Virus genome (UHGV): UHGV-1672213
Length of the DNA stretch: 12,748 nt
Direction: 5' to 3' (one strand)
Origin: a virus
Below the pieces are notes generated by a model. The model was given only the letters and a program-made list of their open reading frames with translations, was not told the DNA's origin and did no database searches. Made by a program: the position numbers and the translations under genes. Position 1 is the first letter of the stretch. Every line of letters begins with the position of its first letter. This document shows, one piece after another, positions 2,496-12,181 of this stretch.

Positions 2496-2501
2496 GAGTG
2501 A

Positions 2502-3707
2502 TTACGCCGCTGCAATCTTCAGCAGTTTGATGGCCTGCGAATCGACCAGCATCCCGCCGGTGCGCTTGGTGGTATAAAAACCGACAAACGGTTTATTGGT
2601 GTACGGGTCACGCAGAATGCGGGTGCCGATACGGTCAACGATGGTGTAACCCCGTTTGAAGTTACCAAATGCAATGGCTTTCGCATCAGCGGCGATATCC
2701 GGCATCTGTTCGTTTTCAGCGATACCGTAACCCGCCAGAGAGGACGGCTGCCCCAGTTCCAGCCCCGGACGCCACAGATAGTTACCCTCGGTGTCTTTCA
2801 GCAGACGGATGGCAAACAGGCTGTTGTTGTTCATCATGAACTTCGCGCCAGTGCGGTGTGCCTTACGCAGCGTGTAAATCAGTTTGATAATGGCGTCTGC
2901 GGTCACCGCAGTCGCGTCGCCGGATACAATATGCTGAAGTTTGCCGAACGCCCGGACCTTATCGGTTTCATCAGTGGATTCATACGCCAGGAACCCTTTC
3001 GGCTTCTTGGTGCCATCGCCTGAGGTAAAGGCAATTTCTTCCTGTTCGGCAAATTCGGTTGCCAGCTCGCTGTTGATCCAGGCCTCCACGTTGAAAAAGG
3101 CATCGTCCAGCATTTTCTGGGTGGCCTGCGGGTTACCGTAGATTTCCCCCATGAGAGGTTCAATCAGCTCCAGTCTGGAGGTGGCAGTCTGGGATCGCGT
3201 ATCCGTTTCCCCCACCCATCCGGAAGCCGTACCGCCCAGATTCACCAGTTTTTTGTAGTCGGAACCGCCAACGGTGATCACCGTGGCTTCCTGACGCATC
3301 ACCACTTCATCTTTAAGCAGGTTGAGAATGTTGCGATCCAGCGCTTCCGGCACGGCGTAGCCACCGTCTTCATCGGTACCCACCTGCAATGCCTTACGCT
3401 CCAGATCGCGCAGACCGTCTTCACGGCCTTTACGCAGGAAGCCCACAAACGCCTCTTTATGCTCGGTGGCCAGTTTATTTTGCGCTCCACCTGCCGGACG
3501 TTTCAGCTCAAGCAGCTCTTTTTCAAGGTCGCTTTTGAGATTTTCCAGCTCGCTGAGTTTCCCGTTCAGGGTTTCCACCTGCCCGGCAAGCTTGCCTTTT
3601 TCCTGCTCAATCGCATCCACGCGCTTGTCGTTCTTTGCTTTGAAGTCGTCAAACTTCTGCTGCAGCTCCTGCGCGACCTGTTCGACATCTTTAATATCAA
3701 CCGCCAT
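2502..3707 (-). CDS. Major capsid protein, HK97 family, with N-terminal coiled-coil delta (scaffold) domain
   Basis: ATG at 3705-3707 with SD AGGAG 7 nt upstream; 401 aa; N-terminal ~100 aa coiled-coil (KLSELENLKSDLEKELLELK) followed by an HK97-type capsid fold region. Confidence 0.9.
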   Translation of the reverse strand: MAVDIKDVEQVAQELQQKFDDFKAKNDKRVDAIEQEKGKLAGQVETLNGKLSELENLKSDLEKELLELKRPAGGAQNKLATEHKEAFVGFLRKGREDGLRDLERKALQVGTDEDGGYAVPEALDRNILNLLKDEVVMRQEATVITVGGSDYKKLVNLGGTASGWVGETDTRSQTATSRLELIEPLMGEIYGNPQATQKMLDDAFFNVEAWINSELATEFAEQEEIAFTSGDGTKKPKGFLAYESTDETDKVRAFGKLQHIVSGDATAVTADAIIKLIYTLRKAHRTGAKFMMNNNSLFAIRLLKDTEGNYLWRPGLELGQPSSLAGYGIAENEQMPDIAADAKAIAFGNFKRGYTIVDRIGTRILRDPYTNKPFVGFYTTKRTGGMLVDSQAIKLLKIAAA

Positions 3708-3721
3708 CGTATTTCTCCTGA

Positions 3722-4372
3722 TTAGAAGTTCAGATTTTTCAGTGCATTCAGTGCAGAGCCCACATCCTCAGCGTCGCGCAGGGACAGTGCGCCATAGCCC
3801 CCGGCCATGAATGCTTTGGCCTGGGTACGGGAGAGTCCGACATCACGCAGGACTCTTTCGATTTTTTTCTGTTCGGGGATTTCCCCGCGGGCCAGCGCGT
3901 TCTTGACGTCGCTGATCCGCGCCTCGTCGTTAGATGGAAACGTCACCAGACTGACTTCCCAGAGGTCGATTTCTTTCAGCAGAAAGGCTTCTTTCGTCCG
4001 GTCGTATTCCCAGTCCTTCAGGACGTACCCAATAGAAAGGCCGGTTAACGAACCGGCCTTCATGTGTGCATGTGCGCGTTTTGCCAGGGGATCATCATCA
4101 ATGAGCAACCGTCCCCTGACGTAAAGCCCGACATCGTCTTCCTTCATTTCGGTGTAAACACCGATGGGTTCATCCATGCGGTGCTGCCAGAGCAGCGCAG
4201 GTAACGCTTTTCTGTCACTCCACGCCCGCAGGGAAGCAGCAAATGCCCCGGACATCACCACATCATCGTGGCTGTCCTTTACACCAAAGACGGAGCCATA
4301 CCCTTCAAACTCACCGGAGTCACTGACAGATTTCAGACTCAGCGGTACATCAAGACGTTGTTTCGTCTGCAT
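3722..4372 (-). CDS. Prohead maturation protease, HK97 family
   Basis: Motif EFEGYGSVFGVKDSHDDVVMSGAF typical of HK97 prohead proteases. Start reassigned to ATG 4370-4372 (MQTKQ..., SD AAGGA 8 nt upstream); the track start at 4408 lacks an SD and overlaps portal by 59 nt. Confidence 0.8.
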   Translation of the reverse strand: MQTKQRLDVPLSLKSVSDSGEFEGYGSVFGVKDSHDDVVMSGAFAASLRAWSDRKALPALLWQHRMDEPIGVYTEMKEDDVGLYVRGRLLIDDDPLAKRAHAHMKAGSLTGLSIGYVLKDWEYDRTKEAFLLKEIDLWEVSLVTFPSNDEARISDVKNALARGEIPEQKKIERVLRDVGLSRTQAKAFMAGGYGALSLRDAEDVGSALNALKNLNF

Positions 4373-5591
4373 TGGCGTTATCCTTCTGCTTACCGGCTTT
4401 ACTGCCATCGGAGGGTTTCGTGGTCATGTTCATCGGTGTGAGATAGACATCCCCACCGGGACGCGGATTCATATCTTCCAGGTCGCGGCAGTCATTGGGA
4501 GAGTAAATTCCCCAGTTAATCCCGGTGGCGTAGGCTTCAAAACGGGACTTCATATCCCCGCGCAGTAACGCCCCGGCGTTAAATTTGGCGTAATAAACGC
4601 CCTGCTTACTTTTTCGTACCAGTCCGGTGTTGATCCGCTGCTCAATGCGGGTCAGATACGGCACCAGTGAATAGTTGATAAATCCCAGCCCCAGTTCTTC
4701 GATATTGTTGAAGGTGGCGCGATCGGTGTTCTGCACCATGTGCAATGGCACACGGAACAGACGACAGATTTCTTCAAGCTGAAACTTGCGGGTTTCCAGG
4801 AACTGGCTGTCCTCGGCGTTCAGCGCCATCGACTTCCAGTCCAGCCCCATCTCAAGGATCATCGGGCGGTGAGCATTACCAAGCCCGGTGTGACGCTCCT
4901 CAAAATCTTTCTTCAGACGCTCATAAGCCTGATCCGACAGCGTCTGCTCTGTACGCAACACACCGGACGTCACCGCACCATTGCTGAACAGTCTGGCCCC
5001 GTGCTCTTCGGTCGCAGCTGCCAGCGATATTGCCTCGCGGGCATAGGCGATGGGATTCAGTCCCACCAGACCGTCCAGCGTCAGCGTGCGCACATGCCAG
5101 ATATCTTCCTGGCTCAGTACATCCGTGGAGCCGTCCGGGAATGTGACCTGGTAAACCGGTTCCCAGCTACTGTTAAGCTTCGGTACCACACAACCTGGGT
5201 CGACGGGCAGCAGTTCAGCCACTTCGCCAAATGCTTTCACTTTGTAGGCGTAAAAGTTTCCCCGCAGGCACAGACAGGTGACCACCAGCTCCCAGAACTC
5301 CTGCGGCGTCATATAGCCATTGGGATGCGTGGAGATCAGCTTATGCAGACGTTCGCCGGTGGCTCTCTGTTTCAGGCTGCCGTTCAGGTGATACAGGTTG
5401 CAGGGCAACATCCCGACCGACTCCGCCAGCACCCTGACGCAGGAAAAAACCGCCGTCAGTCGCATGGCCCGCTGGCTGCTGATCTGCTTTCCGGTATAGG
5501 TGTCATATGACAGCCCGATAGCATCCGCCAGCTCTGCTGGCGTGGTCACCGGTGCGTCACTTTTTCGTTGAAATAATCCCGAAAAGAACAC
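4350..5591 (-). CDS. Portal protein, HK97 family
   Basis: 413 aa; GTG start at 5589-5591 preceded by SD GGAGGT (5-nt spacer); position between terminase and protease. Confidence 0.88.
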   Translation of the reverse strand: MFFSGLFQRKSDAPVTTPAELADAIGLSYDTYTGKQISSQRAMRLTAVFSCVRVLAESVGMLPCNLYHLNGSLKQRATGERLHKLISTHPNGYMTPQEFWELVVTCLCLRGNFYAYKVKAFGEVAELLPVDPGCVVPKLNSSWEPVYQVTFPDGSTDVLSQEDIWHVRTLTLDGLVGLNPIAYAREAISLAAATEEHGARLFSNGAVTSGVLRTEQTLSDQAYERLKKDFEERHTGLGNAHRPMILEMGLDWKSMALNAEDSQFLETRKFQLEEICRLFRVPLHMVQNTDRATFNNIEELGLGFINYSLVPYLTRIEQRINTGLVRKSKQGVYYAKFNAGALLRGDMKSRFEAYATGINWGIYSPNDCRDLEDMNPRPGGDVYLTPMNMTTKPSDGSKAGKQKDNANADETTS

Positions 5592-8492: not shown

Positions 8493-8520
8493 CCAATAAA
8501 AAGCCCCGCGACGCGAGGCT
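8493..8520 (-). terminator. Intrinsic terminator closing the AT-rich cargo island
   Basis: Minus-strand RNA stem AGCCUC/GGGGCU (one G-U pair) with 7-nt loop, followed by UUUUUAUU; lies between the 67-aa gene stop (8551) and the HNH start. Confidence 0.5.
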
Positions 8521-9728: not shown

Positions 9729-10201
9729 GCCTCAATCTCTCTTACCGTTCCGCCAGCTTCTTTGAATTTTGCAATCAGGCTGTCAGCCTTATGCTCGAAC
9801 TGACCGTAACCAGCCCCCGGCAGTGAAGCCCAGATATTGCTGCAACGGTCGATAGCCTGACGAATATCGCCGCGATCAATCATTGGTAAAGCGCCACGCT
9901 CTTTAATCTGCTGCAGCGCAACAGCATCCTGGCTTTTCGGAGAGAAGTCTTTCAGGCCAAGCTGCTTACGGTAGGCATCCCACCAACGGGAAAGAAGCTG
10001 GTAGCGTCCGGCGGCTGTTGATTTGAGTTTGGGGTTTAGCGTGACAAGTTTGCGAGGGTGATCGGAGTAATCAGTGAATAGCTCTCCGCCAACAATGACG
10101 TCATAACCATGATTTCTGGTTTTCTGCCGTCCGTTATCCGTTCCTTCTGACCATGCCACCATATCGAGGAAAGCCTTACGCTGAGGATTAAGATTTTGCA
10201 T
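9725..10201 (-). CDS. R: Endolysin, lambda R-type lytic transglycosylase
   Basis: 158 aa, near-identical by recall to lambda R ([54 protein letters not shown]...), including the catalytic Glu in WSEGT. Confidence 0.95.
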
Positions 10202-10505
10202 TTTTCACCCCTGTCAGTCGTTCCCAGAAGTACGTCAGTGCAACCGAACCCATCGCACCACTAATCCCCGCTGTCGCGAGAATCATGTAAATACTGAATC
10301 CACTTTCGATGCTGATCAGGCCACCAATAACACCGGTGAATCCTGATACCACTATCTGAGCCAGAGCATTTATCCAACTCCACGTTGCTTTACTCTGCTT
10401 CACATCTATCAGGTAGCGGACCAGACCGCCCCAACCTGCGATGATCAGCAAAACGAGCCAGAACGCTCCGGCAAGGCTCTCTTTTTCGTGCATATGAATA
10501 GCCAA
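10188..10505 (-). CDS. Putative holin (3 predicted TM helices), not lambda S-like
   Basis: Immediately upstream of R; 101-105 aa with three hydrophobic segments and a charged C-terminus. Start ambiguous: TTG at 10503-10505 or ATG at 10491-10493, neither with a strong SD. Confidence 0.7.
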   Translation of the reverse strand: MAIHMHEKESLAGAFWLVLLIIAGWGGLVRYLIDVKQSKATWSWINALAQIVVSGFTGVIGGLISIESGFSIYMILATAGISGAMGSVALTYFWERLTGVKNAKS

Positions 10506-10534
10506 TGTTTCGCCGCCGACAAAAGGCCGGGACG

Positions 10535-11032
10535 TTAAATGTCAGAAATCAGACTCACGGGGTAATTTAACGACAAAGCACGGAGTTGAAGATCCCCACA
10601 AGCCTGGAATAAAAAAGCCAGCGACAGGCTGGCAATGTGAGGGTAACGCAAAGTGCTTAGAAACAAAAAAAGGCCGCCATCGGCGACCTTCGAGGTATCT
10701 AGCGTGCTGGATACTTTCAGCTTCGCCTTCAATTCAGCGTTGATTTCTTTCAGGCGATCAACATCGTTTTTAAGTTTTTCAATGTCTTGCCCTTTATTAT
10801 CAAGGTCGCGCTGAAGACCTTTAATAATTTCTGTTTGGGCCGCCTGTACTTCTCGTGTCGTCTGGAGAGACTTATCAATATCATCAACTTGGTTAATCAA
10901 GCGTGTACCGAAAAAGCCTACAACTAACATAGTTATCCCAACCATAAAGTTGAGAACCCAGACTTTTGTTCCGGAAGCAGTGTTTGGAGTTTCGTCGATA
11001 AAGTGCACCTTATGCCAGTTAAAGTTACCCAA
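10535..11032 (-). CDS. Hypothetical membrane-anchored coiled-coil protein; boundaries doubtful
   Basis: N-terminal TM (VWVLNFMVGITMLVVGFFG) followed by a heptad-rich stretch (DIEKLKNDVDRLKEINAELKAKLK). The only in-frame starts are TTG at 11030-11032 or GTG eight codons later, without a clear SD, and the frame reads through two intrinsic terminator hairpins. Confidence 0.3.
   Translation of the reverse strand: MGNFNWHKVHFIDETPNTASGTKVWVLNFMVGITMLVVGFFGTRLINQVDDIDKSLQTTREVQAAQTEIIKGLQRDLDNKGQDIEKLKNDVDRLKEINAELKAKLKVSSTLDTSKVADGGLFLFLSTLRYPHIASLSLAFLFQACGDLQLRALSLNYPVSLISDI
10609..10633 (-). terminator. Intrinsic terminator (distal of a tandem pair upstream of the holin)
   Basis: Minus-strand stem GCCAGC/GCTGGC with 5-nt loop, followed by UUUUUU (plus-strand A run 10611-10616). 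Confidence 0.55.
10662..10688 (-). terminator. Intrinsic terminator (proximal of the tandem pair)
   Basis: Minus-strand stem GGUCGCC/GGCGGCC (7 bp, one G-U) with 3-nt loop, followed by UUUUUUUG (plus-strand A run 10664-10670). Confidence 0.55.
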
Positions 11033-11120
11033 CGTCTGCGCAGATCGTTAGATTCGGCAACATTGTAACTGGATAAGGAATAGAAAACCTTGGAATTTTA
11101 AGAAGAAACTGATTGATCGA

Positions 11121-11210
11121 TTATTTAACGAGCGAACACATCCATACACCCCAGACGGGTACTACGACAAAGGCCATGAAATAAGTAACTTTTGCTTGAA
11201 TGTTTTGCAT
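11121..11210 (-). CDS. Candidate small hydrophobic peptide (29 aa)
   Basis: ATG at 11208-11210 preceded by SD AAGGAAG; translation MQNIQAKVTYFMAFVVVPVWGVWMCSLVK has a single hydrophobic helix and a C-terminal Lys; stop TAA at 11121-11123. Below the ORF-track size cutoff. Confidence 0.35.
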   Translation of the reverse strand: MQNIQAKVTYFMAFVVVPVWGVWMCSLVK

Positions 11211-11395
11211 TTCGCTTCCTTAGCAGTCCGATAAGTACTGTCTGCTCATCCAACCTAACGAATGTAGATCAGAATGACAAGTCTTTCGCGCTAATTTCAA
11301 TTTGATATCTCTTCGTAAACATGATGGCGCGAAATATTACGCATGAAGTGCTTCTACATCAACATAAAAGTTACTTTTTTTGTGTTCACAGCATG

Positions 11396-11425
11396 TAAAG
11401 TAAAAGCCCCGCACGATGGCGAGGC
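11396..11425 (-). terminator. tR'-like intrinsic terminator downstream of the Q gene
   Basis: Minus-strand stem GCCUCGC/GCGGGGC (7 bp, one G-U) with 6-nt loop, followed by UUUUACUUUA. Confidence 0.55.
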
Positions 11426-11479
11426 TGTTAATTCTTTGTCGACCAACAAAGCTATGGCGACGATATCAGATTTACATGA

Positions 11480-11508
11480 AATATAAGCGTTTCAGTTCGG
11501 TTTTGCAA
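11480..11508 (-). promoter_or_regulatory. PR'-like sigma70 late promoter (putative Q engagement region)
   Basis: Minus strand: -35 TTGCAA (11503-11508), 17-nt spacer, -10 TATATT (11480-11485). The -35 overlaps the last Q codons; the predicted start is about 50-75 nt upstream of the tR'-like terminator, matching lambdoid PR'-qut-tR' layout. Confidence 0.45.
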
Positions 11509-12181
11509 GACTTACGTGCAAACTTGTCGCCTTTTGTTGTGAACGTGATCGCGTTACTGAGATAAGCGCACCGCTATCGAGTCGCATAAAGCAGCTACGC
11601 ATTGCCAACCAGTGAGGCAGGTATGTCTCTGTCCAGGTGGATTTCGCCACGCCAACCAGTTCCGCCAGCTTCTGGTATTCGTAGGCATCTTTCCCGACCA
11701 ACCCTGCTTTGACATCCTGCGCTGCCAGCCATATCAGCTTCTTCAGGCGCTCCATGGTCTTGCCTGCCACCCTCTTCGCGCCGAGATACCCCCTGAATTC
11801 AGACCACGCCCACTGGGTGATCGCCACCTGGTATTCAAAGCTGATGTTTTCACTGTAACTCCACAGCAACCACGCTTTCTGATGTTCTTCGAGAGACAGA
11901 ACCGCGCGGCGCCATGAAGATGTTGAGAACTCAACCTGGCTGACCAGTGCAATGGATGAACCTTTTGCGTACGACTGCTTACCGGAAATCGGCGGATTAT
12001 CCAGCGTAATCATCTTGCCCGTTACCTCATCCAGAATGCGCGGCTTCTTTCGTTTATATGTACCAGTATCAAATTGTGCATGCTCCAGCCAGGCTTCAAG
12101 CTGGCCTTTCGTTGCTCCGCTCAAATCAGCAGTAGCCACAATGAGTTGCTCGCGGACATACTGTAAATATTGGGTATTCAT
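11492..12181 (-). CDS. Putative late-gene antiterminator Q (non-lambda type)
   Basis: 229 aa; ATG overlaps the ylcG stop; sits between rusA-ylcG and the lysis genes, the canonical Q position, and is followed by a promoter and terminator. Sequence family not confirmed. Confidence 0.65.
   Translation of the reverse strand: MNTQYLQYVREQLIVATADLSGATKGQLEAWLEHAQFDTGTYKRKKPRILDEVTGKMITLDNPPISGKQSYAKGSSIALVSQVEFSTSSWRRAVLSLEEHQKAWLLWSYSENISFEYQVAITQWAWSEFRGYLGAKRVAGKTMERLKKLIWLAAQDVKAGLVGKDAYEYQKLAELVGVAKSTWTETYLPHWLAMRSCFMRLDSGALISVTRSRSQQKATSLHVSLAKPN

What the first reader, a model, noticed from the sequence alone, without database searches (positions are those of the whole stretch)
10609..10688. 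Tandem intrinsic terminators immediately upstream of the holin gene
Two good hairpin plus U-tract terminators lie back to back on the coding strand about 100-170 nt before the holin start. Unmodified RNA polymerase from upstream promoters would stop here, so lysis-gene expression should depend strictly on Q-modified, terminator-resistant polymerase. This is a tighter gate than the single tR' of lambda.
Basis: seen in the sequence. Interest (0 to 1): 0.42.

Follow-up and report, generated by a model that had tools for sequence, protein, structure and literature searches.

The report
Moron and leader terminators before holin
Two genuine transcription stop signals sit back to back in front of a prophage's lysis genes. 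One is the tail of an inserted mobile gene cassette with its own promoter and the other is an old, widely shared part of the lysis-gene leader, so the pair is an ordinary product of phage mosaicism, not a new kind of gate.

Summary
Both hairpin-plus-U-tract terminators are real and lie on the minus (late-gene) strand. T1 is at 10691-10669 (dG -14.8) and T2 at 10633-10617 (dG -9.7), 167 and 116 nt before the holin ATG (10493). A strict scan finds five such sites in the window, all on the coding strand, against 0.17 expected.

They are not the phage's tR' equivalent, and they are not one designed unit.
- **tR':** the terminator next to the late promoter lies about 720 nt upstream (11426-11405) and ends an isrJ-type short RNA.
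- **T1:** it is the 3' edge of a 0.7-kb AT-rich mobile cassette (a moron, about 11362-10665) with its own conserved sigma-70 promoter. The cassette occurs behind different Q families and before at least four holin families.
- **T2:** it belongs to the holin leader. 64 of 79 viral contigs with the identical holin carry it, mostly paired with tR' and without a moron.

Their likely job (inferred) is to stop unmodified polymerase from reaching the lysis genes, especially polymerase from the moron promoter, which lies downstream of tR'. Q-loaded polymerase would pass.

One unexpected extra: the moron's main ORF has no stop codon before T1 in any of about 22 intact relatives' versions, so terminated transcripts would be non-stop mRNAs.

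The parts
11492..12181 (-). Q antiterminator gene (229 aa, phage-82/Gifsy-1 AntQ type)
   Evidence: Pfam PF06323, E 1e-91. PHROG 304. 66% identical to Gifsy-1 Q, which its record annotates as similar to phage 82 Q.
11480..11508 (-). Late promoter (pR' equivalent), TTGCAA-17-TATATT
   Evidence: Promoter scan, 9 of 12 matches. It sits directly upstream of the 5' end of the isrJ model match. The same promoter is present in relatives L002, L003 and L075.
11403..11476 (-). isrJ-type short leader RNA. It ends in the terminator hairpin 11426-11405 (dG -13.1), which is this phage's tR' equivalent.
   Evidence: Rfam RF01393: 64.9 bits against a gathering score of 37, full-length match. Terminator found.
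11334..11362 (-). The moron's own sigma-70 promoter: -35 TTGATG (11362-11357), 17-nt spacer, -10 TAATAT (11339-11334)
   Evidence: Conserved at the 5' edge of the cassette. It reads TTGATA-16-TATAAT in six diverged relatives and TTGCTA-16-TATAAT in L004. Promoter activity was not tested.
10665..11344 (-). Mobile AT-rich cassette (moron), delimited by homology to Kosakonia prophages that have a different Q and a different holin
   Evidence: blastn: window 11344..10665 matches L009/L010 at 86% identity. GC is 41% against 53% for the window. The cassette is absent from L002/L003, where Q and holin are 320 nt apart.
11121..11210 (-). 29-aa hydrophobic small ORF (MQNIQAKVTYFMAFVVVPVWGVWMCSLVK) preceded by the ribosome-binding site CTAAGGAA
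   Evidence: Translation. Conserved as a peptide, together with its ribosome-binding site, in all clades. No known family.
10535..11032 (-). Main moron ORF: short N-terminus, one transmembrane helix, a coiled coil, then read-through of T1 and T2 into a 40-residue unconserved tail. The conserved core is 10999-10667.
   Evidence: ORF list. Homologue alignment is conserved up to ...KVADGGLF and then diverges. dN/dS is about 0.2 over 103 core codons. There is no stop before the terminator in any intact relative's version.
10660..10691 (-). T1: intrinsic terminator at the 3' edge of the moron, inside its ORF (codons K-V-A-D-G-G-L-F-L)
   Evidence: The hairpin is kept in L005, L009 and L004, with 36 of 36 cells paired, and in L004 it sits in a different reading frame. 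Other hairpin versions occupy the same place in other clades.
10608..10633 (-). T2: intrinsic terminator belonging to the late leader / holin module
   Evidence: Present in 64 of 79 viral contigs that carry the identical holin. 48 of 48 stem cells are paired, with two pairs changed on both sides and five different loops.
10494..10607 (-). Conserved untranslated holin leader downstream of T2
   Evidence: 90-97% identical in L013, L014 and L011, and over its last 75-78 nt in L075 and L055. The scan found no promoter-like site in it.
10188..10493 (-). Holin (101 aa from the ATG; LydA-type), the first gene of the lysis cassette
   Evidence: Pfam PF16083. PHROG 785. RefSeq relatives use the same ATG start.

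Best explanation
T1 and T2 are two independent Rho-independent terminators that moron insertion brought next to each other in the late-operon leader of a lambdoid prophage with a phage-82/Gifsy-type Q.

T2 is an old part of the leader. In the common arrangement the order is Q - late promoter - tR' - about 90 nt - T2 - about 115 nt - holin.

A 0.7-kb mobile cassette was inserted between tR' and T2. It carries its own sigma-70 promoter, a 29-aa ORF and a membrane coiled-coil ORF, and T1 is its 3' end.

Because the cassette's promoter lies downstream of tR', tR' cannot stop its transcripts. T1, with T2 as back-up, keeps those transcripts, and any leak through tR', out of the holin, endolysin and spanin genes in a lysogen. 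Polymerase that has picked up Q at the late promoter ignores all three terminators and expresses the cassette, the lysis genes and the structural genes.

Shown here: the anatomy, the module boundaries, the conservation of the hairpins and of the promoter, and the distribution. Inferred from established Q and terminator biology: that termination occurs at these sites, that the promoter is active, and that Q-modified polymerase reads through.
For: **The terminators are real.** See: five strict sites, all on the coding strand, against 0.17 expected.

**tR' lies elsewhere.** The isrJ-type RNA and its terminator sit directly after the late promoter. In Stx phages the constitutive pR' transcript ends at tR' as a short Hfq-binding RNA (PMC7547250).

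**T2 belongs to the leader.**
- About 970 E. coli records match only from window ~10651 or ~10622 downward, and only 3 of 5426 genomes have the whole 1.1 kb.
- L002 and L003 have tR' plus T2 and no cassette.
- 64 of 79 holin-anchored viral loci have T2 at -140..-123. Of these, 57 also have a tR' at -254..-227.
- The stem is kept by double and wobble changes while the loop varies.

**T1 belongs to the cassette.**
- The homology to Kosakonia loci ends at 10665, inside T1's T-tract.
- The cassette occurs behind PF06323, PF06530 and DUF1133-type Q genes and before holins of four or more Pfam families.

**The cassette has its own promoter.** It reads TTGATG-17-TAATAT here and TTGATA-16-TATAAT in diverged relatives, at the same aligned position.

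**There is an independent parallel.** The L014-class loci carry a different small gene with its own terminator at -208..-186, followed by T2.

**Q biology.** Q-loaded polymerase bypasses intrinsic and Rho-dependent terminators, and this has been shown for 82Q (PMC4914094).
Against: - No RNA 3'-end or promoter-activity data exist for this element. Everything functional is inferred.
- T2 has only a 6-bp stem (dG -9.7), so it may be only moderately efficient.
- In this window both T1 and T2 lie inside a translated ORF. A ribosome following the polymerase closely could hinder hairpin formation and weaken both.
- The window's -10 hexamer (TAATAT) is weaker than the TATAAT of relatives. The tool's promoter scan did not list this site at its 9-of-12 threshold.
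- 15 of 79 loci with the same holin lack T2, so it is not indispensable.
- The T2 sequences used for pair counting were partly collected with a pattern that presupposed pairing.
Confidence: 0.72

Rival explanations
1. The two terminators form a dedicated double gate on transcription from the late promoter. They take the place of lambda's single tR' and make lysis depend more strictly on Q.
For: Both are good terminators on the coding strand, just before the holin. Any polymerase that leaks through tR' would meet them. The common relatives also have two terminators (tR' and T2) before this holin, so redundancy in this leader may be selected.
Against: A separate tR' equivalent lies next to the late promoter. 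T1 and T2 belong to different mosaic modules. T1 is found wherever the cassette is, whatever the holin. 15 of 79 loci with the same holin have no T2.
Confidence: 0.1
2. T1 is more than an insulator. It is placed inside a stop-less ORF on purpose.

Transcripts from the cassette promoter end at T1 without a stop codon. The coiled-coil protein is then tagged by tmRNA and destroyed, or is released as a defined truncated form.

Transcripts antiterminated by Q reach a stop codon and give stable protein.

The protein would therefore accumulate only in lytic growth. This adds to the best explanation; it does not replace it.
For: **No stop before the T-tract.** This holds in every intact relative's version: about 22 distinct C-terminal versions at the DNA level, with at least six hairpin versions.

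**Peptide signatures.** Further library representatives carry related in-frame hairpin peptides, seen at the protein level only.

**Conservation pattern.** The ORF is conserved (dN/dS about 0.2) right up to the hairpin. The tails after it are unrelated and 5-56 residues long.

**Frame shift in L004.** There the T1-like hairpin sits in a different reading frame, so it is kept as a nucleic-acid structure and not as a peptide.

**Precedent.** ArfA and BrfA are made from non-stop mRNAs created by an internal terminator and are controlled by trans-translation (PMC6881298).
Against: The loss of the stop codon may be a single ancestral event that is merely tolerated. Random tails may be harmless. Nothing here shows tagging or degradation. 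The two most distant representatives (P0019, P0020) end right after the coiled coil and may have normal stops. The start codon of the ORF is itself uncertain.
Confidence: 0.25
3. The hairpins are not terminators. They would be mRNA 3'-stabilising or processing structures, or simply the consequence of a conserved peptide motif in the ORF.
For: Both lie inside an annotated ORF. The motif GG[LF]F recurs in homologues.
Against: - Each hairpin is followed at once by a run of 6-7 T. This is not needed for a stabiliser and is unlikely for a peptide motif.
- Hairpins with different sequences, and in one case a different reading frame, occupy the same spot.
- T2 occurs in most relatives outside any ORF.
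- All five strict terminator-like sites lie on the transcribed strand.
Confidence: 0.04

Closest known systems
Lambda tR' / 6S RNA, and Stx-phage tR' / StxS (the Q-gated terminator that ends the constitutive short pR' transcript)
   Same: Intrinsic terminators in the late leader, between the Q-dependent promoter and the lysis genes, and presumably overridden by Q-loaded polymerase (PMC7547250; PMC4914094).
   Different: That role is filled here by the isrJ-type element at 11476-11403. T1 and T2 lie about 790-870 nt downstream of the promoter, do not define the short leader RNA, and belong to other modules.
Morons of lambdoid phages: independently expressed genes with their own promoter and terminator, inserted into an operon. 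Definition as used in PMC2629481; the HK97/HK022 examples are from my own knowledge.
   Same: The cassette 11362-10665 has its own promoter, its own terminator (T1) and lower GC. It is absent from otherwise collinear relatives and present in unrelated contexts.
   Different: Its main ORF has no stop codon of its own and runs through the terminator. A neighbouring example in the same site (L014 class) has a normal stop and then a terminator.
Gifsy-1 late leader (antQ - isrK - orf45 - anrP - isrJ ... holin)
   Same: The Q proteins are 66% identical, and the same isrJ-type promoter and RNA are present (PMC4825925). That leader is also filled with inserted genes (tRNA-Arg, gogA).
   Different: The inserted genes and the holin are different. 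T1 and T2 have no match there.
ArfA (E. coli) and BrfA (B. subtilis): genes with an internal terminator or cleavage site that are expressed from non-stop mRNA
   Same: An intrinsic terminator lies upstream of the ORF's stop codon, so terminated transcripts lack a stop (PMC6881298).
   Different: There is no sequence relationship. The product is a membrane coiled-coil protein, not a ribosome-rescue factor. No evidence of tmRNA control exists. A Q antiterminator that could bypass the internal terminator is a new element.

Membership tests
Rho-independent (intrinsic) terminator | G+C-rich stem-loop | tested here: met
   T1: 10 pairs, 6 of them G-C, dG -14.8. T2: 6 pairs, 5 of them G-C, dG -9.7.
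Rho-independent (intrinsic) terminator | U-tract immediately 3' of the stem, on the transcribed strand | tested here: met
   T1 is followed by TTTTGTTTC and T2 by TTTTTTATT, both on the minus (coding) strand. Neither has a T-run on the other strand.
Rho-independent (intrinsic) terminator | Hairpin maintained in relatives while the sequence changes | tested here: met
   T2: 48 of 48 cells paired, two pairs changed on both sides, two wobble changes, five different loops. The sample is small and was partly chosen with a pattern.

T1: 36 of 36 cells paired, but only one-sided changes. Different hairpins sit at the same place in other clades.
Rho-independent (intrinsic) terminator | RNA 3' ends produced at the U-tract | not testable with these tools
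   Needs Term-seq, 3' RACE or in vitro transcription.
Lambda-type tR' (the Q-gated terminator of the short late-leader RNA) | It is the first terminator after the late promoter and defines the constitutive short transcript | tested here: not met
   The first terminator is at 11426-11405 and ends the isrJ-type RNA. T1 and T2 are the second and third.
Lambda-type tR' (the Q-gated terminator of the short late-leader RNA) | Read through by Q-modified polymerase and not by unmodified polymerase | not testable with these tools
   Inferred from the general property of Q-loaded elongation complexes (PMC4914094).
Moron (cassette that ends in T1) | Lies between genes that are adjacent in related phages | tested here: met
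   Q and holin are 320 nt apart in L002 and L003 and about 1000 nt apart here. 57 of 79 holin-anchored loci have no insert.
Moron (cassette that ends in T1) | Own promoter | tested here: met
   A conserved sigma-70-type site at the cassette's 5' edge: TTGATG-17-TAATAT here and TTGATA-16-TATAAT in relatives. This is sequence evidence only; activity was not tested.
Moron (cassette that ends in T1) | Own factor-independent terminator | tested here: met
   T1 lies at the 3' homology boundary, 10665.
Moron (cassette that ends in T1) | Base composition differs from the flanks; occurs in unrelated genomic contexts | tested here: met
   41% GC against 53%. Found behind two or three Q families and before at least four holin families in Escherichia, Klebsiella, Kosakonia, Enterobacter and Raoultella.
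ArfA/BrfA-type internal terminator (non-stop mRNA) | Terminator lies upstream of the ORF's in-frame stop codon | tested here: met
   No stop before the T-tract in the window or in any intact relative's version.
ArfA/BrfA-type internal terminator (non-stop mRNA) | Product level controlled by trans-translation | not testable with these tools
   Needs a comparison of protein levels in ssrA mutants.
ArfA/BrfA-type internal terminator (non-stop mRNA) | Sequence homology to ArfA or BrfA | tested here: not met
   Pfam, NCBIfam and PHROGs give only weak coiled-coil matches.

The most novel reading that the evidence does not exclude
The cassette's main ORF deliberately lacks a stop codon, and T1 sits inside it. 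Transcripts made by ordinary polymerase from the cassette's own promoter would be non-stop mRNAs. Their product would be tagged by tmRNA and degraded, or released as a defined truncated form. Only Q-antiterminated transcripts would reach a stop codon and yield stable protein. That would couple a protein-level switch to transcription antitermination, giving an ArfA/BrfA-like device in a phage moron that is read out by Q.
Probability: 0.25. Interest if true: 0.6.

Novelty: new member of a known kind. Interest (0 to 1): 0.3.

Why it matters
For the finding as stated, the value is mainly corrective. The late leader of this widespread prophage group (82/Gifsy-type Q, LydA-type holin) normally carries two terminators, tR' and T2. 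A promoter-bearing insert adds a third.

This shows how a moron with a constitutive-looking promoter can sit directly upstream of lysis genes without killing the lysogen: it brings its own terminator, and the leader supplies a back-up. That helps in annotating Q-holin intergenic regions, which also hold stx and other cargo genes, and in predicting which cargo is expressed in lysogens and which only after induction.

The side observation is the part that could teach something new. A conserved gene family ends in a terminator instead of a stop codon. It offers a simple, testable system for the interplay of termination, antitermination and ribosome rescue.

Tried and rejected
- **Chance origin.** Rejected by the strict shuffle test. 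The first version of that script timed out and printed nothing.
- **Known RNA family for T1 or T2.** An Rfam search at the gathering threshold and a permissive one over 10450-11560 gave only isrJ at the tR' site. The weak MicX, mir-302 and IsrM matches are noise.
- **Bidirectional terminators serving a convergent plus-strand gene.** Rejected. There is no T-run on the plus strand and no credible plus-strand gene.
- **A promoter between T2 and the holin that would bypass the gate.** The scan found none.
- **Function of the cassette proteins.** Pfam, PHROGs, NCBIfam and PADLOC gave only weak coiled-coil matches, for example PHROG 739 'Rz-like spanin' at E 4e-4. Searches scanned the small ORF in the wrong frame (11125-11211). 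The correct peptide (11210-11121) was rescanned and gave nothing.
- **Frameshift to a stop codon.** A +1 shift on the T-run would reach a TAA in the window, but that stop is not present in L009, so I dropped the idea.
- **Wider sampling.**
  - The genome-contig scan with the protein alignment returned only 2 loci.
  - The viral scan with P0020, which might have shown an ancestral normal stop, found nothing.
  - Whole-library phmmer found only 17 cluster representatives, so the family is small.
- **Literature.** Searches for tandem terminators in phage 82-type late leaders found no direct description. PMC6266700 only mentions a 'terminator cassette'.
- **Isolated phages.** Only one isolated phage record (PhiR47_2) has the common tR'-T2-holin arrangement.

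Full report
**Layout of the region**

All credible genes in the window are on the minus strand. Reading in the direction of transcription, the order is:

- RusA (12677-12315) and a YlcG-like ORF (12318-12178);
- a 229-aa Q antiterminator (12181-11492; Pfam PF06323, E 1e-91). It is 66% identical to Gifsy-1 Q, which its record annotates as similar to phage 82 Q;
- about 1 kb with no lysis gene;
- a LydA-type holin (ATG 10493 to 10188; PF16083), a 158-aa ORF whose close RefSeq relatives are annotated as glycoside hydrolase family 24 (endolysin; no Pfam hit), an Rz spanin, and further on terminase and head genes.

**Observation**

The two elements are there.

| Element | Stem-loop | Coordinates | Tail | dG (kcal/mol) |
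|---|---|---|---|---|
| T1 | GAAGGTCGCC-GAT-GGCGGCCTTT | 10691-10669 | TTTTGTTTC | -14.8 |
| T2 | GCCAGC-CTGTC-GCTGGC | 10633-10617 | TTTTTTATT | -9.7 |

Both hairpins appear in the MFE and centroid folds of the 121-nt stretch. Neither is followed by a T-run on the plus strand.

The strict criterion was at least 4 G-C pairs, dG <= -9, and at least 6 T in the next 8 bases. Under it the window holds five sites, all on the coding strand. 200 dinucleotide shuffles gave 0.17 +/- 0.40 sites and never a pair within 100 nt. The U-tracts end 167 and 116 nt before the holin ATG.

**The tR' equivalent lies elsewhere**

The best promoter-like site in the region (TTGCAA-17-TATATT, 11508-11480) overlaps the end of Q. 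It is followed at once by a full-length match to Rfam isrJ (11476-11403; 64.9 bits against a gathering score of 37). That RNA ends in a third strong terminator (11426-11405, dG -13.1).

This is the usual design of a Q-dependent late promoter: a constitutive short RNA ending at tR' (PMC7547250). In Gifsy-1 the same promoter and isrJ unit lies upstream of the lysis genes, separated from them by inserted cargo (PMC4825925). The comparison with 'the single tR' of lambda' is therefore off. This leader has three terminators, and T1 and T2 are the second and third.

**T2 belongs to the leader and holin module**

In 5426 complete E. coli genomes, 970 records match the 1.1-kb query. Only 3 genomes hold at least 80% of it. 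In the rows listed, the other matches begin at window ~10651 or ~10622, that is, at T2.

In two such genomes (L002, L003) Q and holin are only 320 nt apart. The order there is late promoter, a tR' hairpin, about 90 nt, T2 with the same stem but a different loop, about 115 nt, and the holin.

A holin-anchored sample from IMG/VR gave 80 loci with a 100% identical holin, chosen without reference to the leader. Of the 79 usable loci:

- 64 have T2 at -140..-123;
- 57 of those 64 also have a tR' at -254..-227 and no insert;
- 15 have other upstream sequence. One of these has an unrelated terminator at the same position.

Across eight distinct T2 versions, all 48 stem cells pair. Two pairs change on both sides (G-C to U-G, A-U to G-C), two change to wobble pairs, and the loop has five different sequences. 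Caveat: some of these versions were collected with a pattern that presupposes pairing, and the two double changes occur in two closely related sequences.

**T1 belongs to a mobile cassette (a moron)**

- **Boundaries.** Homology between the window and two Kosakonia prophage loci, which have a different Q family and a different holin, runs exactly from 11344 to 10665. It ends inside T1's T-tract.
- **Distribution.** The cassette lies behind PF06323, PF06530 and DUF1133-type Q genes. It lies before holins of at least four Pfam families, in Escherichia, Klebsiella, Kosakonia, Enterobacter and Raoultella.
- **Composition.** It is 41% G+C against 53% for the window.
- **Promoter.** Its 5' edge carries a conserved sigma-70 promoter. 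The window has TTGATG-17-TAATAT (11362-11357 and 11339-11334). Six diverged relatives have TTGATA-16-TATAAT and L004 has TTGCTA-16-TATAAT, at the same aligned position.
- **Contents downstream of the promoter.**
  - a conserved ribosome-binding site and a 29-aa hydrophobic ORF (11210-11121);
  - a conserved palindrome (11049-11031);
  - an ORF for a protein with one transmembrane helix and a coiled coil. Its dN/dS is about 0.2 over 103 codons against seven relatives, so it is a real gene.

The cassette meets every sequence criterion of a moron as that term is used for lambdoid phages (PMC2629481).

An independent parallel supports this reading. In the L014-class loci a different small Cys-rich gene, with a normal stop and its own terminator at -208..-186, occupies the same site upstream of T2. 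This again gives a tandem pair before the same holin.

**Mechanism (inferred)**

The cassette promoter lies downstream of tR', so tR' cannot stop its transcripts. Q is loaded only at the late promoter. Polymerase starting at the cassette promoter is therefore ordinary and should terminate at T1. T2 would catch what leaks, together with any leak through tR'. This protects a lysogen from expressing holin, endolysin and spanins.

After induction, Q-loaded polymerase bypasses intrinsic terminators (PMC4914094) and transcribes through all three. It is not a special double gate replacing tR'.

Weak points:
- there are no RNA data;
- T2 has a short stem;
- in this window both terminators lie inside a translated ORF, which might reduce their efficiency.

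**The unexpected part**

The cassette's main ORF has no stop codon before T1. In the window the hairpin and T-tract encode K-V-A-D-G-G-L-F-L, and the frame stays open through T2 to 10535. This adds 40 unconserved residues, and RefSeq annotates the same long ORF in L001.

- **First homologue set.** Seven homologues are conserved up to ...GG[LF]F and then diverge completely.
- **DNA level.** I compared about 22 distinct C-terminal versions from some 40 loci. None of the intact ones has a stop before the T-tract. One locus, L111, has an ORF truncated early. At least six different hairpin versions occupy this position, for example:
  - AAGGTCGCC-GAY-GGCGGCCTT;
  - AGCCACC-TTCG-GGTGGCT;
  - AAGGCTGCC-TCT-GGGCAGCTT;
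  - AAAGCTGCC-TAA-GGGCGGCTTT, whose loop TAA is out of frame;
  - AAGGCTGCCCC-TC-GGGGCGGCTT.
  The stop follows 5-56 codons later, in unrelated sequence.
- **Reading frame.** In L004 a T1-like hairpin is read in a different frame. It is therefore kept as a nucleic-acid structure and not as a peptide.
- **Whole-library search.** A phmmer search finds only 17 cluster representatives. Most show such hairpin-encoded C-terminal signatures. The two most distant end right after the coiled coil and might have normal stops.

Transcripts that terminate at T1 would thus be non-stop mRNAs. ArfA and BrfA show that an internal terminator can be used in this way (PMC6881298). Whether that is exploited here, or merely tolerated, cannot be decided from sequence. 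One possibility is that stable protein is made only from Q-antiterminated transcripts.

**Verdict**

- The elements are ordinary members of known kinds: a moron terminator and a late-leader terminator. I found no published description of these particular elements.
- Interest in the finding as stated is low to moderate. The stop-less ORF that ends in T1 is the only feature that would surprise a specialist.

Noticed in passing
window 11403-11508 (-): The late promoter plus a full-length isrJ-type short RNA that ends in a strong terminator. This is the phage's real tR' unit. It shows that Rfam isrJ is the short leader RNA of 82/Gifsy-type Q-dependent late promoters.
   Followed up: partly
window 10535-11032 (-): The cassette's membrane coiled-coil ORF has no stop codon before its terminator in any intact relative's version. 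At least six hairpin versions occur and the tails are unrelated. Terminated transcripts would be non-stop mRNAs.
   Followed up: yes
window 11121-11210 (-): A 29-aa hydrophobic ORF (MQNIQAKVTYFMAFVVVPVWGVWMCSLVK) with a conserved ribosome-binding site. It is conserved as a peptide across clades (pattern PxWGxWxxSLxK) and matches no known family. It could be a small membrane peptide or a toxin-like product.
   Followed up: partly
window 11031-11049 (-): A conserved near-palindrome, AACGATCTGCGCAGACGTT, lies between the small ORF and the main ORF. In Raoultella locus L091 it is replaced by a different palindrome with the same outer arms (AACGTCGCGGCCGCGCGTT). It may be an RNA hairpin or a protein-binding site.
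   Followed up: no
window 10997-11018 (-); L098 about 1480-1505: A strong Shine-Dalgarno sequence, TAAGGTG, lies 6-7 nt before an ATC (ATA in other clades) at the start of the conserved coding region. In L098-type relatives there is no ATG, GTG or TTG in frame between the preceding stop and this codon, which suggests a non-canonical start codon.
   Followed up: partly
L004 4253-4312: A diverged copy of the cassette (47% protein identity) has two terminators in tandem, both inside the ORF: GAGCCACC-TTCG-GGTGGCTT and AGGCTGCC-AACT-GGCGGCCT. The second resembles T1 but is read in a different frame.
   Followed up: yes
L014, about -470 to -186 relative to the holin ATG (7 loci): A different small moron sits at the same insertion site upstream of T2. 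It is a gene of about 60 aa with Cys-x2-Cys pairs, a normal stop and its own terminator. It follows an isrJ-like tR'.
   Followed up: partly
L075 569-1372 (13 similar loci): The same holin is preceded by a 267-aa gene on the opposite strand, between the late promoter and the holin. T2 is missing, and the leader homology starts only 75 nt before the ATG.
   Followed up: no
window 8502-8520 (-): Another strong terminator (AGCCTCGC-GTC-GCGGGGCT + TTTTATTG, dG -12.3) lies on the coding strand after the small genes that follow Rz and before the HNH endonuclease and terminase genes. It may mark a second moron.
   Followed up: no
window 4039-4058 (-): A strict terminator-like site (GGCCGGTT-CGTT-AACCGGCC + TTTCTATT, dG -13.2) lies inside a 228-aa ORF (3722-4408) of the head-gene region.
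   Followed up: no
window 10493-10505 (-): The holin ORF can start at TTG 10505 or at ATG 10493 (MAIHMHEK...). This could be a dual-start holin/antiholin arrangement. RefSeq relatives use the ATG.
   Followed up: no
L112 (Gifsy-1) 2501-4372: In Gifsy-1 the isrJ unit is separated from the holin by 1.8 kb that carries tRNA-Arg, a small ORF and the virulence gene gogA on the opposite strand. This is another example of cargo accumulating in this leader.
   Followed up: no
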